From contig OZ024742.1 in assembly GCA_964016885.1 (NCBI GenBank), forward strand, positions 148,118,001 to 148,182,000: DNA of 64,000 bases, read 5' to 3'. The stretch comes from Eledone cirrhosa. Its lineage: Eukaryota. This document shows positions 4,026 through 63,431 of the stretch, in pieces. The first letter of the stretch is position 1. Each line of letters begins with the position of its first letter. The notes beneath the pieces are model-generated. The model was not told the origin of the DNA. It did not search any database and saw nothing but the letters and a program-made list of their open reading frames with translations. A program made the translations under genes and the position numbers.

Positions 4026-4121
4026 ACCCCGACGGCAGAGCTCAAGCCGTTTCGACGGCTATTTCTGGACTAAATTAGAATTTTTAGCCTGGTAAATAAA
4101 TAGCCGAACTTGTCAAGGGGT
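4026..4121 (-). ncRNA. Type I hammerhead ribozyme, U3-A8 core variant (family A)
   Basis: Reverse complement: ACCCC-TTGACAA-G(TT)CGGCTATTT...AAATAGCCG(T)C-GAAA-CGGC-TTGAGCTCT-GCCG-TC-GGGGT. All three helices pair and the cleavage triplet is GUC. Confidence 0.8.
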
Positions 4122-4276
4122 ACTTCCTTATATAGGAAGATTGTAGTTGTTGAGAGGATTGGTCAAAATTTGTTGTAAACACAAATAAGGTCAAGAGCAT
4201 TAAATTCAAACCCAGACACAACGGATTCCTGCAACTCCATAGCAAAATAACAGAGTATGAAAACACCAACGACATC

Positions 4277-6001
4277 ATGGTGCACTCGGACAAAACTGGA
4301 AACCTCTACTTCGTCAACCCTGACAGATACCACACACTGATCAGGAGCAGCCTAAACTCCACCTATAAAAAGGCTAACCATTCAATTATCGAGGACATAA
4401 ATCGAGATGGACAACAAATTACCTCCAGCCTCGGGGTCTTCGACCGCACTGAACCCATAGACCCACGGACTCCCTACTTCACATTGAAGGACCACAAATC
4501 CGACTTCGACCGCAAACCATCCATCAGGCTTATAAACCCAACGAAGTCGGATATAGGGAGAATTAGTAAAGAGATCCTAGACCGCATTATACCAAAAGTT
4601 AAGCAAAACGCGAGACTTGGCCTATGGGTCAGCACCCAGGAAGTAATCTCATGGTTCACGAATATGGAGGACAAACGAAATACAAAATTCATCAAGTTCT
4701 ACATAGAGAGTTACTATGCATCTATTACCTTACCGCTCCTTACGGCCGCCTTGGACTTTGCCGAAACACTCACACCCATCACTGACCAGGAAAGAAATAT
4801 CATTCTCCACGCCAGGAAGACAGTCCTACTTTTCGACAACTCCAAGTGGATAAAGAGAGCTCTCGACTCCCCCTTCGACGTCAGTATGGGCGCGACGGAT
4901 TCGGCCGAGGTCACAGATCTTATAGGATTATTCCTACTATTTAAACTCACCGAAATGTTTCCTGAATTCGGCGGTGGATTGTACCGAGATGATGGGCTCC
5001 TCACCCTCAAAGAGTACAACCCCAGTAGTACAGACGGGGTCCGTAGACAACTAATCAACTTCTTCTGGGACTGGGGATTTAAAATCACCCTACAAACGTC
5101 CCTAACCCGAGTCAATTTCCTGAACGTTACCCTTAACCTCGAAAATGATCTGTACTACCCATACAGGAAACCAAACGACAACCTGCACTACATCCACCGC
5201 CACTCTAACCATCCTAGAAACATCACCAATAACCTGGTTAAAAACATCTCCCTCCGCATATCTCGTTTGTCCGCTAATGAGCAGATATTCGACGAACATG
5301 CGTCTCATTACAACCAGGCCTTCAAGCGGAGTGGCTTCCGGGAGGAAATATCCTTTTATCCAGCTTCCCCACAATATCCTTTTATCCAATCCTCCCCACA
5401 ATGCCGAGGTGGCAACACCTATCGGGAAAATCTTCTTTAGGCTCCTCGAAAAACACTTCCCACTACAACACCGCTACCACAACATAATCAAGGAAAATAC
5501 CACCAAACTCTCCTACAGCACCACACCTAACTTCGCACAAAACATCGTCTCCTCAAACAACAAAAAACTCAACCCTTATGGAAGAAACAACCTAGACATC
5601 AGTGGAGAACCGACCATGAGGTGTAACTGCCCTGATAGATCTACGTGCCCCCTCAACAACAGATGCCGAGAACTTAACGTGATCTACCAGTGCAAAGCTT
5701 ATATAGGATTAACCGCTTGTGACTTTAAGACCCGGTTCTACCAACAGCGACATACTTTCCGAAACCCGGTCCGGCGACATGCCACTACACTTTCGAGCCA
5801 CATCTGGGACCTCAAAGATAATAATATAACCTACAATCTCACTTGGAGCTTACTGTCCAGAGCCAACTCTTACACGGGAGGACGCCGTCCTTGTAACTTA
5901 TGCTCGGAGGAAACATTACAAATGTTGTTTTCGAAGGACCAACTCCTAAACAAGAAAGACTAACTGGTAACCGCATGCAAACACAGATTGCGTAGGACGT
6001 A
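4277..6001 (+). pseudogene. PLE reverse transcriptase plus GIY-YIG endonuclease, disrupted
   Basis: RT motifs KDHK..RLINP, MGA..S..V.D..GL, YRDDGL, VNFLNV, YRKP. After a frameshift near 5360 come NPP, a CNC-x5-CPL-x3-C linker, VIY..YIG, FKTRF, C-x2-C and LLNK. A premature stop at 5961 precedes LVTACKHR. Confidence 0.9.
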
Positions 6002-6252
6002 ACTCGCCCTCAAACCCCATAACGACCCGGGTGGGTAGACAAGGGCTGATACCCCCCACTTGCCGAATAAGTTAGGGGAAACCCCAGCTTACATAGGTAG
6101 ATGTACCTCTTTTCTTTTCCTCTATGGTTTCTTCTCTCCCCTGTCTCATCCTATCACTTCCTTCCACTCCCGATCTTCTTCCTCGTCTGCTTTTCCCCTT
6201 TCTCCTACCCCGATGCAGCCCACCGGGCATCTGTAGCCTCAGTACCCCCACT

Positions 6253-6620
6253 CTTGTAATTTTAAGATAGAATTGGCCGAATACGCTTTACTAACCATTT
6301 ATAGCAGATGTGTTAGACCCCTGTAATTTTGTATAATTTTTGTTACTACTCCTATTCTACAATTTCAAAATTTCTTATTTAGTATTTTCTGTTCTCAACT
6401 TATTAACCTGTAATTGTAAGATAGCATTGGCGGAATACGCTTTACTAACTATTTATAGCAGCTGTGTTAGACCCCTGAAAAGTTTGCATTATATTTTTTC
6501 ACTACCCACTTCTACAATTTCTTATTTAGTATTTTCCATTCTCAACTTATTAATCTTTTCTATAGCTTTGGCCGTACAAGCAACACCTACTAATTAGAGC
6601 AGCTGTTTCTAGACTCTACT
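6253..6620 (+). repeat. About 155-bp tandem repeat (about 2.4 copies) in the PLE 3' UTR
   Basis: GAATACGCTTTACTAAC...TTATAGCAG.TGTGTTAGACCCCTG occurs near 6280 and 6435, with a degenerate copy near 6590. Confidence 0.8.
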
Positions 6621-7080
6621 GTTTTTTTTATTCATTTCTCACTATCTAATTTTATCTATCTATCTATCTATCTATCTATCTATCTATCTATCTATCTATC
6701 TATCTATCTATCTATCTATCTATCTATCTATCTCTCTCTCTCTCTCTCTCTCTCTCTCTATATATATATATATATATTTATTTTTTTTATATTTCTTTCT
6801 ATTATTTTTTATTGTCTCCTACTCTCATTTGACTTACCTATTATAACCTCCCTCCTCCATTTTCTCCAGAACAATTTTTCGACTTTTCATACACTATCCT
6901 GAGAATCTGCTGTATAGATTTCACTTTCAACGCTTGATCGGCTCCACTCACTCCCTCATTGTTCTACGGGCAAGTTCAGCCACCCCTACCTCCCATCAAA
7001 TGCCATGATCGACTTATTTGTGTTTACAACAAATTTTGACCAATCCTCTCAACAACTACAATCTTCCCATATAAGGAAGT

Positions 7081-7182
7081 ACCCCTTGACAAGTTCGGCT
7101 ATTTATTTACCAGGCTAAAAATTCTAATTTAGTCCAGAAATAGCCGTCGAAACGGCTTGAGCTCTGCCGCTGCCGTCGGGGT
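7081..7182 (+). ncRNA. Type I hammerhead ribozyme, U3-A8 core variant, in the PLE 3' pLTR (family A)
   Basis: Same motif as 4026-4121 in sense orientation, with a 6-nt CTGCCG duplication in helix III. Confidence 0.8.
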
Positions 7183-61813: not shown

Positions 61814-62024
61814 ATCAGGACTCTGTTTTCCTTTTAATGTTTTATTGTTTTCTGAGATTTATCTTAACCTACAACATTCTCAACATATGGATTACATCGA
61901 ATTCTTCATGCAGAATAGACCCCCCAACTTACAGTGGATACCTCTGTATATATATATATATATATATATATATATAAATATATATATATATATATATATA
62001 TATATATATATATTTAAAGGATCG

Positions 62025-62238
62025 ATCGACTTTCGTCAAATCGGACCGAGGAAACAATGTTTCCGTTGGTCTTTCCAGTTGCTAGTACTATCTATCGGTC
62101 GCAACTCCAGGTAGAAGGAGCAACGTGAAATAAAGTGTCTTGCTCAAGGACATAACGCATCGCCCGGTCCAGGAATCGAACTCACAACCTCAAGATTGTG
62201 AATCCAATTCTCTAACCATTCAGCCACACGCCTTCACT
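62025..62238 (-). mobile_element. CORE-like tRNA SINE
   Basis: Reverse complement of the family at 3780-3995. Confidence 0.8.
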
Positions 62239-62512
62239 ATATATATCATAAAACATGTCTATAGAATCACCAGATAAAATATATACCATTTCCTCTCCCA
62301 ATTAGCATAATTAACCATATAAAAAATCGAATAGACCAGGCTATAAGAATAAGGCTTCTATGAAGAAATCTCCAACAAATAACCGTAACCAGCCCTTCGC
62401 GCCGGCTGCCACGGAATATTTATCGAATATTTCGACAGCGTAATCGTAATATACAGTCAATTAAACAGAATTAGGTGTAAAATAAACTAGGAGAAAAGAG
62501 AATACATTTATT

Positions 62513-62591
62513 TACCTCGACCATGGTTTCGTCCGCATCTTAAGATCTCCGATAATTTCGGAAACTTGAGCACTGGACTCTTCAGGAGTTA
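62513..62591 (-). ncRNA. Type I hammerhead ribozyme, canonical C3-G8 core (family B)
   Basis: Inverted copy of 63353-63431 with an intact core. Confidence 0.85.
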
Positions 62592-63352
62592 GTTCAGATC
62601 TAGACAATAAATTTTCCAAAGTGATCGCGCCAAGAATACATTCAAAAATGGCTAAGAATCGTGACGTAGCAGTGGTCAGGTTGGAAGGAGTGTGGTTAGT
62701 TGCTTACGGCTGGTGGCTTTTTACTAGAAATCGCAGCACAATACAGCCAAATTTGTATCTCAACCTAACGGGAGATTATTACATATAAAGGTTTACACAC
62801 ACACACACACACACACACACACACACACACACACACACACACACACACACACACACACACACACACACACACACACACACACACACACACACACACACAT
62901 ATATATATATATATATATATATATATATATATATACATATATACATATACGTGTTTTGCAACGGGTAACTTTGTGGCTCAATGAAAAGTTAATAAATTAA
63001 ATAAGGAAATGGTATACATTTTATCTGGTGATTCTATAGACATGTTTCATGATATATAGCTCTGATTATTTAATTTATTAACTTTTCATTGAGCCACAAA
63101 GTGACCCGTTGCAAAACACGTATATGTATATATATATATATATATATGTAAACCTTTATATGTAATAATCTCCCGTTAAGTTGAGATACAAATTTGGGTG
63201 TATTATGCTGCGCTTTCTAGCAAAAAGCCACCAGCCGTAAGCAACTAACCACACTCCTTCCAACCTGACCGCTGCTACGTCACGATTCTTAGCCATTTTT
63301 GAATGTATTCTTGGCGCGATCACTTTGGAAAATTTATTGTCTAGATCTGAGC

Positions 63353-63431
63353 TAACTCCTGAAGAGTCCGGTGCTCAAGTTTCCGAAGTTATCGGAGATC
63401 TTAAAATGCGGACGAAACCATGGTCGAGGTA
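63353..63431 (+). ncRNA. Type I hammerhead ribozyme, canonical C3-G8 core (family B)
   Basis: (TAA)CTC-CTGAAGA-GTCC-(42 nt with a TTCCGA/TCGGAG hairpin)-GGAC-GAAA-CCATGG-TC-GAG(GTA). Helix III is the palindrome ACCATGGT. Confidence 0.88.

What the first reader, a model, noticed from the sequence alone, without database searches (positions are those of the whole stretch)
4026..63431. Natural covariation series at the catalytic 3-8 pair (C-G, U-G, U-A) in two HHR families
Seen: family B cores are CTGAAGA (63359), TTGATGA (11322) and TTGATAA (12151-12236, 12786). Family A cores are TTGACAA (4026-4121, 7086) and TTGAAGA (57432-57526). The motif at 7491 is TTGAAGA. Known: C3-G8 is a tertiary Watson-Crick pair in the active HHR, and a compensatory U3-A8 pair can retain activity. 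Inference: reaching U-A alongside U-G in two families suggests selection for cleavage, possibly at tuned rates. A standard CUGANGA search would miss most of these motifs.
Basis: partly seen in the sequence, partly recalled or inferred. Interest (0 to 1): 0.75.

Follow-up and report, generated by a model that had tools for sequence, protein, structure and literature searches.

The report
Loose-core hammerheads of Penelope retroelements
These are real hammerhead-shaped RNA motifs carried by Penelope-type jumping genes and short repeats, but their core base pair does not strictly co-vary: it drifts among C-G, U-G, U-A and, in over 1,500 copies, a C-A mismatch, so these RNAs likely cut themselves only weakly or with help (cutting is untested).

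Summary
All eight listed cores are in the sequence and sit in type I hammerhead folds; two copies are decayed. Family A is the 3' repeat of a Hydra-clade Penelope-like element. Family B and the 7491 family are ~0.6-kb non-coding repeats. The proposed series holds only in family B (14 C-G, 33 U-G, 30 U-A, 1 C-A of 82 copies; two changes on the tree). In family A, A8 is fixed (5,711 of 5,748 Y3/R8 matches) and position 3 changes alone: 4,196 U-A against 1,515 C-A. The C-A state runs through four nested subfamilies with RT-endonuclease frames and precedes the youngest U-A subfamilies. U-G is the standing state of the young 7491 family (96 of 100 listed). The rest of the core is unchanged between subfamilies while N7 is free, so the fold is likely selected, but the 3-8 pair needs only pyrimidine-purine. 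Most short copies run through the cut site, so templates were uncut or rejoined RNA. Natural U3-A8 is in print (2011; in these elements 2014), and this scan noted it before in this and other genomes. I did not find amplified C3-A8 or U3-G8 lineages in the papers I could search.

The parts
4026..4121 (-). Family A type I hammerhead, core TTGACAA (U3-A8), in the inverted terminal arm of the Penelope-like insertion
   Evidence: arms differ at 2 of 185 positions
4154..5963 (+). 5'-truncated, frameshifted Hydra-clade ORF: RT (DKT, YRDD), CxCx5C linker, C-terminal endonuclease
   Evidence: a relative with an open 695-aa frame in L339; clade features from PMC8557442
7080..7183 (+). Family A hammerhead, core TTGACAA (U3-A8), sense to the ORF in the 3' repeat; 6-nt duplication in stem III
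7486..7622 (+). Family D hammerhead, core TTGAAGA (U3-G8 wobble), 80-nt stem II with A-A at its base, long stem III; predicted cut after C7617; part of a ~0.6-kb non-coding repeat
11317..11402 (+). Family B1 hammerhead, core TTGATGA (U3-G8), in a ~650-bp (TA)n-flanked non-coding element (about 11110-11780)
12149..12238 (-). Family B2 hammerhead, core TTGATAA (U3-A8), self-complementary stem III
12779..12868 (+). Family B2 hammerhead, core TTGATAA (U3-A8); A13 changed to G, so a decayed copy
57432..57526 (-). Family A hammerhead of the small U3-G8 subfamily (TTGAAGA); 3' strand of stem II damaged; one arm of a short fold-back insertion
60243..61310 (-). 3' part of a second Hydra-type ORF (family C; CxCx5C and endonuclease, 34-42% identical to family A)
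61627..61765 (+). Its other arm near 57706-57838 (-) has GTAA for GAAA
62516..62588 (-).
63356..63428 (+). Family B3 hammerhead, canonical core CTGAAGA (C3-G8), minimal palindromic stem III
305..435 (-). Hammerhead-like motif related to family C but with C3-G8 (CTGAAGA); not followed up in the genome

Best explanation
The motifs are type I hammerhead folds at the 3' repeat of Hydra-clade Penelope-like retroelements and in ~0.6-kb non-coding repeats, likely kept by selection as slow or conditional self-cutting RNAs whose 3-8 core pair needs only a pyrimidine opposite a purine. Shown: the source elements moved among C-G, U-G, U-A and C-A one transition at a time and kept amplifying in each state, while the other core positions and the stems stayed fixed between subfamilies and N7 took all four bases. 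Shown: most short family A copies extend through the predicted cut site and stop 30-58 nt upstream of it. Inferred: insertion is templated by uncut (or rejoined) RNA, so a fast ribozyme at the 3' repeat would cost the element its template, and a weakened 3-8 pair is tolerated. Inferred: cutting happens rarely, late, in dimers through the self-complementary stem III, or only in the RNA-protein complex. Recalled, not from a call: U-G and protonated C-A wobbles have the same shape, and the catalytic group at position 8 is the ribose 2'-OH, which would let any such pair hold it near place.
For: Family A counts: U-A 965+3,231, C-A 456+1,059, U-G 14+15 and C-G 5+3. In a 95-copy tree built without the core, C-A spans four nested starred nodes and lies basal to the near-identical U-A subfamilies. 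Arm-to-arm divergence falls along that path: 0.023 (6 pairs), 0.0145 (7 pairs), 0.0012 (3 pairs of the youngest U-A). C-A copies carry RT-endonuclease frames of up to 550 aa. Across nine subfamily groups, 0 changes in 12 core columns and 1 in 35 stem columns, against 0.82 per column in the upstream UTR; N3 changed twice, N7 three times, N8 once. With the core left free in the pattern, no subfamily with a broken U4/G5/A6/A9 appeared: 9 of 100 listed had single scattered changes, 0 of 100 in the younger set. Family D is U-G in 96 of 100 listed of 206, and its closest copies are 96-99% identical. B1 stem III shows double-sided changes: T-A 30 / C-G 7 and A-T 16 / G-C 15 of 39. 39 of 50 family A ends stop 30-58 nt upstream of the cut. 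In the anole element, hammerhead mutants inserted normally in vitro and cleavage needed the protein (PMC11167929, passages).
Against: No cleavage was measured. In a full pairwise scan of another hammerhead, only the G3-C8 swap rescued activity and all other single and double changes there were low (PMC9901934, passage), which argues that C-A and U-G forms may be dead rather than slow. Family B1 avoids C-A (1 of 82). Family A left C-A for U-A, and its largest and youngest subfamilies are U-A, which fits some benefit of the Watson-Crick pair. C-A has one origin, and C3 occurs almost only with G7 (95 and 97 of 100 listed), so it may not be a plain mismatch. Only transitions were seen at 3 and 8, which mutation bias alone could give with so few events. 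Five of the 12 invariant columns were fixed by the search pattern; for the other seven alone P is 0.0005-0.03 by background. The root of the family A tree is unresolved. Counts include both arms of one insertion and tandem arrays.
Confidence: 0.55

Rival explanations
1. The fold is kept as a structural signal (a binding site for the element's protein, or a landmark for reverse transcription) and cutting is no longer needed, so C-A and U-G lineages are catalytically dead but transpose normally.
For: Copies pass through the cut site and end inside stem II. About 4 of 30 loci chosen for lacking the two bases before the cut join at the cut, out of 889 such ends against 14,137 with them, so there is no pile-up at the cut. 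Hammerhead mutants of the anole element insert normally in vitro. Single changes at 3 or 8 gave low activity in another hammerhead.
Against: The unpaired catalytic positions (G5, A6, A9, G12, A13, A14, C17) did not change between subfamilies while N7 took all four bases, which is the catalytic consensus; a binding site could need the same shape, so this is not decisive.
Confidence: 0.2
2. In the CUGAGAA subfamilies C3 pairs with G7 instead of position 8 (a one-step register shift, with the extra A taking the place of the unpaired base that Penelope hammerheads often have before stem II), so the apparent C-A mismatch is a working new core.
For: C3 comes with G7 in 95 of 100 and 97 of 100 listed copies; both appear on the same branch and C3 is lost before G7. 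An extra base between 9 and 10.1 is a described trait of these motifs (PMC4209133).
Against: One origin only, so the link can be hitch-hiking. G7 is also common with U3 (most of the 100 listed). The shift would remove the N7 spacer; I found no natural example in the searches made. A look-alike in family C (CTGAGTA) proved to be the wrong reading of that motif.
Confidence: 0.12
3. One reading: the 3-8 pair co-varies under selection for efficient cutting, with U-G as a short-lived step and C-A excluded, possibly tuning rates.
For: B1: C-G 14, U-G 33, U-A 30, C-A 1 (per-copy Fisher p=0.003), ordered on the tree with the lone C-A copy sharing U-A subfamily marks. U-A is reached in families A, B and C. 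Family A returned to U-A.
Against: 1,515 C-A copies in a long-lived lineage; no 3-8 association in family A (p=0.58); U-G is the commonest state in B1 and the standing state of family D; the B1 signal rests on two changes.
Confidence: 0.1
4. The variant cores are decay in dead copies (for example CpG loss at C7-G8).
For: Individual copies are decayed (12786, 57521, the 57.8-kb arm); G8 in most family A subfamilies and the lone C-A in B1 are scattered single changes.
Against: The states are shared by hundreds to thousands of copies and by both arms of young insertions; only one A8 subfamily has C7 and it nests among other A8 subfamilies.
Confidence: 0.03

Closest known systems
U3-A8 minimal hammerheads of Schistosoma mansoni Cercyon Penelope-like elements (Cervera and De la Pena 2014, PMC4209133; parts 1-2 of 4 read)
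   Same: Type I topology in the pLTR, short open stem I, long stem II, palindromic stem III, U3-A8 in place of C3-G8 in over a thousand copies, pairs on opposite strands.
   Different: Stems II here are 48-103 nt and stem III is a full 4-6 bp helix in A, B1, B2 and D. The parts read report no C3-A8 or U3-G8 lineage and no ordering of states; supplements were not read.
Natural U3-A8 core variants (Perreault et al. 2011, PMC3088659; passages)
   Same: C3-G8 to U3-A8 covariation seen in nature and described as active in vitro.
   Different: That survey set aside core-mutant hits as mostly cryptic copies in repeats; here the mismatch and wobble states are subfamily-wide.
Hydra clade of C-terminal-endonuclease Penelope-like elements (Craig et al. 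2021, PMC8557442; section 11, passages and one supplement search)
   Same: DKT, RW(K/R), CxCx5C, CxxC and CxH motifs, C-terminal endonuclease, (TA)n targets, inverted truncated arm, hammerhead near the 3' end.
   Different: That paper reports canonical hammerheads for the clade; family A has A8 in 99.4% of Y3/R8 matches. Its file S2 of hammerhead structures was not seen.
Poseidon element of the green anole, PAc (PMC11167929; passages)
   Same: Penelope-like element whose hammerhead is not needed for insertion in vitro and whose uncut RNA is the main template.
   Different: Canonical C3-G8 core; different clade; the hammerhead overlaps the ORF start, whereas here it lies about 1.1 kb after the stop.
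Non-LTR retrozymes (Cervera and De la Pena 2020, PMC7229834, passages; bioRxiv 10.64898/2026.07.22.740005, part 1 of 5)
   Same: Families B and D are short non-coding hammerhead repeats, some in head-to-tail arrays (family D period 610-617 bp).
   Different: Longer than the 150-450 bp typical of animal retrozymes, (TA)n-flanked, with inverted pairs; circular RNA not shown.

Membership tests
Type I hammerhead ribozyme | Three stems around the core in type I order, with A15.1-U16.1 and H17 | tested here: met
   constrained hammerhead fold within 1.6-4.5 kcal/mol of the ensemble for 8 of 9 family A copies folded, 7.6 for one U-G copy (2 more copies failed to parse)
Type I hammerhead ribozyme | Invariant U4 G5 A6 A9 G12 A13 A14 with free N7 | tested here: met
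   (subfamily level; single copies such as 12786 are decayed)
Type I hammerhead ribozyme | Watson-Crick pair between positions 3 and 8 | tested here: not met
   Met in U-A and C-G subfamilies; not met in 1,515 family A C-A copies, in family D and in 33 of 82 B1 copies
Type I hammerhead ribozyme | G10.1-C11.1 closing pair of stem II | tested here: inconclusive
   Met in A and B; families C and D have C-A and A-A there
Type I hammerhead ribozyme | Tertiary contact between stems I and II | not tested
   Stem I is open and 3-7 bp; no contact was modelled
Type I hammerhead ribozyme | Site-specific self-cleavage | not testable with these tools
Hydra-clade Penelope-like element (family A) | RT then C-terminal endonuclease in one ORF; DKT; RWK-type motif; CxCx5C linker; CxxC and CxH around the conserved E and N | tested here: met
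   Motifs read in the window ORF and the 695-aa frame of L339, which has RWR, against PMC8557442 section 11. Pfam gave no match
Hydra-clade Penelope-like element (family A) | (TA)n targets, 5' truncation and inverted terminal arm | tested here: met
Hydra-clade Penelope-like element (family A) | RT phylogeny groups with published Hydra families | not tested
   No published sequences were aligned
Non-LTR retrozyme (families B, D) | Non-coding unit with one type I hammerhead, in tandem arrays | tested here: met
   Penelope protein match near 1 of 64 B1, 0 of 11 B2 and 2 of 24 B3 motif occurrences in overlapping loci (not run for D); arrays
Non-LTR retrozyme (families B, D) | Expressed as monomeric circular RNA | not testable with these tools
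   Not searched for B or D

The most novel reading that the evidence does not exclude
A retroelement lineage ran for several subfamilies and over 1,500 insertions on a hammerhead with a C3-A8 core, and another family runs now on U3-G8, and both still cut in the cell: either the 3-8 pair works as a wobble when the element's protein or a dimer partner holds the fold, or CUGAGAA is a new register-shifted core with C3-G7. The natural series C-G, U-G, U-A, C-A would then be the first in-genome walk through the whole pyrimidine-purine space of the catalytic pair.
Probability: 0.3. Interest if true: 0.7.

Novelty: new variant of a known kind. Interest (0 to 1): 0.47.

Why it matters
What hammerheads do in Penelope-like elements is open: they are conserved but slow in vitro and were dispensable for insertion in the one reconstituted system. 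This genome gives a dated natural series in one lineage, with one base changing at a time at the catalytic pair while everything else in the core stays fixed. Measuring five or six natural RNAs would show whether selection acts on cutting or only on shape. It also shows that descriptors needing C3-G8 or U3-A8 miss thousands of motifs. The U3-A8 variant alone is not new.

Tried and rejected
Rfam scan: 131 matches at E<=5, mostly microRNA models on simple repeats, no hammerhead. Pfam: no family for the RT or endonuclease frames. I first took 7491 for a non-hammerhead because the strict scan missed it; the relaxed scan and fold reversed that. I first read the family A motif as antisense to the ORF; the 7086 copy is sense and downstream, and 4116 is the inverted arm. 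CTGAGTA in family C looked like a second C3/G7 case but the core is TTGAAAA further upstream. My first family A pattern (1,470 matches) missed the larger subfamilies with another base at 10.2; one search exposed this and searches corrected the counts. Rooting family A with a family C protein failed. Single-sequence folding z-scores were weak for most motifs (-0.1 to -3.1). Sequencing-run search for window 6900-7280: no RNA holder listed; no reads were laid. CpG decay as the source of A8 was rejected on the trees. Papers not held, so not seen: Lunse 2016, Przybilski and Hammann 2007, Martick and Scott 2006, Scott 2013 and one review looked up by a recalled id; any of them, or the unread supplements of PMC4209133 and file S2 of PMC8557442, may already list C3-A8 or U3-G8 natural forms.
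Full report
Observation. The eight cores are at the stated places. The window lies in an unnamed 3.0-Gb genome, G000. A strict type I descriptor found six of them plus 62585(-). A relaxed one found 7491, 61636(+) and 428(-) as well, with 8 motifs at score 13 or more against 0.5 per shuffled window. 7491 has stem I GCTCG/CGGGT, an 80-nt stem II and a long stem III, and folds into the full junction at -43.5 kcal/mol; I re-read it after earlier notes on rewired hammerheads in this genome, and it proved to be an ordinary type I order. 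The 57521 and 12786 copies are decayed. Rfam reports no hammerhead.

Carriers. Family A lies about 1.1 kb after the stop of a frameshifted RT-endonuclease ORF (4154-5963) on the same strand; 4026-4121 is the inverted terminal arm. The ORF has DKT, YRDD and CxCx5C, and a relative has an open 695-aa frame with RWR, DKT, CxCx5C, YIG, CxxC and CxH. These are the marks of the Hydra clade, which inserts in (TA)n (PMC8557442 section 11). Family C (60243-61765) is a second such element. B1, B2 and B3 are about 70% alike, about 0.6 kb, (TA)n-flanked and without a linked ORF. Family D (7491) is an unrelated unit that forms arrays with a 610-617 bp period.

Genome-wide states. These are exact-flank patterns, so lower bounds, and they count both arms of an insertion and array members. 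B1: 82 matches, C-G 14, U-G 33, U-A 30, C-A 1, other 4. B2: U-A 6 of 7. B3: C-G 98 of the first 100 of 109. C: U-A in 26 of 26 motif occurrences among the closest relatives. D: U-G 96 and U-A 4 of the first 100 of 206. Family A, two pattern sets: U-A 965 + 3,231, C-A 456 + 1,059, U-G 14 + 15, C-G 5 + 3. In the first set 29 of 1,470 matches had other states and one was A-G; the 'other' class was not counted for the second set.

In a tree of 50 copies (of 78 found; 28 dropped as too short) with the core removed, C-G forms a starred clade at one end, U-G fills the middle and U-A gathers at the other end, with some scatter. The lone C-A copy was too short for the tree but shares the U-A subfamily's marks. 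Stem III changes on both sides at once while staying self-complementary. The per-copy p of 0.003 rests on two source-element changes, and the direction is unrooted.

Family A does not. A8 is fixed and position 3 changes alone (p=0.58). In trees of 43 and 95 copies without the core (short copies dropped, and rare states over-sampled on purpose), the order is U-G subfamily, U-A, C-A, U-A. C-A spans four nested starred nodes. The youngest subfamilies, nearly identical in sequence, are U-A and nest inside it. Arm-to-arm divergence falls from 0.023 to 0.0145 within C-A and to 0.0012 in the youngest U-A, so C-A to U-A is the supported direction; the root, and so the way into C-A, is unresolved. C-A insertions carry RT and endonuclease frames. 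C3 goes with G7 in 95 and 97 of 100 listed copies.

Selection on the rest. Across nine subfamily groups (43 copies) 12 core columns did not change, stems changed once in 35 columns, the upstream UTR changed 0.82 times per column, and N3, N7, N8 changed 2, 3 and 1 times. Five core columns were fixed by the pattern; freeing positions 3-9 showed only scattered changes; for the seven unconstrained columns P is 0.0005-0.03 depending on background.

Where copies end. One 3'-end pattern has 14,137 matches with the two bases before the cut intact and 889 with both changed. Of 50 ends in 40 stretches taken from the first places listed, 39 stop 30-58 nt upstream of the cut, inside stem II, 6 stop nearer, 1 at 73 nt and 4 reach the core. 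Of 30 loci from the second set about 4 join at the cut, judged by eye. So reverse transcription crossed the cut site in most insertions; the template was uncut or rejoined. This matches the anole element, whose hammerhead mutants insert normally in vitro and whose hammerhead cuts only with protein (PMC11167929, passages).

Mechanism. Shown: fold, carriers, counts, order of states, conservation, end points. Inferred: the motif is a slow or conditional ribozyme, because the catalytic consensus is kept while the 3-8 pair is loosened and the template must survive uncut. Recalled: U-G and protonated C-A wobbles share a shape. The role of the position-8 2'-OH is recalled and echoed in one abstract listing (PMC11300833). 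Against: a pairwise scan of another hammerhead found only the G3-C8 swap rescuing (PMC9901934, passage), and the most successful subfamilies are U-A.

What is known. Natural U3-A8 was reported in 2011 (PMC3088659, passages) and in Penelope-like elements in 2014, about 1,300 hits (PMC4209133, parts 1-2 of 4). Earlier notes of this scan record U3-A8 in this and other genomes and G3-C8 elsewhere; none held all the words for C3-A8 and U3-G8. Paper searches for C3-A8 or U3-G8 natural forms gave nothing relevant, but five key papers were not held and supplements were not read.

Verdict. The part worth a bench test is the amplified C3-A8 lineage and the U3-G8 family. New variant of a known kind; interest 0.47.

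Noticed in passing
family A genome-wide; L263-L302: 5' truncation and fold-back points cluster 30-58 nt upstream of the predicted cut (39 of 50 ends), inside distal stem II, giving many short palindromes. This suggests a strong stop for reverse transcription within the hammerhead.
   Followed up: partly
window 7300-7860; G000 C2 near 364.96 Mb and 379.42 Mb: Family D is a young ~615-bp repeat with a hammerhead that folds stably as a monomer, has U3-G8 and an A-A pair at the base of stem II, and forms head-to-tail arrays of nine or more units: a candidate circular-RNA retrozyme.
   Followed up: partly
window 7760, 11708, 13026, 63704: Families B and D share a short 3'-terminal motif (TAGCTCTGATT followed by TTGAGCC or CTGAGCC), seen by eye, although D does not align with B overall.
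   Followed up: no
window 305-435 (-) and 61627-61765 (+): Two related family C motifs with ~100-nt stem II have C3-G8 and U3-A8: a third lineage with a 3-8 change.
   Followed up: partly
window 15755-15801 (-): Small minimal hammerhead shape with canonical CTGATGA, short stem II and a UU at the cut site; copy number not checked.
   Followed up: no
L339:857-2944: A very young family A insertion (arms identical over 704 nt) with an open 695-aa RT-endonuclease frame, so the family was active recently.
   Followed up: partly
family A 3' ends, e.g. window 4012-4026 versus 7184-7277: The two arms of an insertion end at two fixed points about 90 nt apart, one just after the hammerhead and one with an added tail, before (TA)n; longer than the 30-40 bp tail described for these elements.
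   Followed up: no
window 32092-35505 and 39185-41211: Broken non-LTR retrotransposon frames with endonuclease- and RT-like motifs (family not tested).
   Followed up: no
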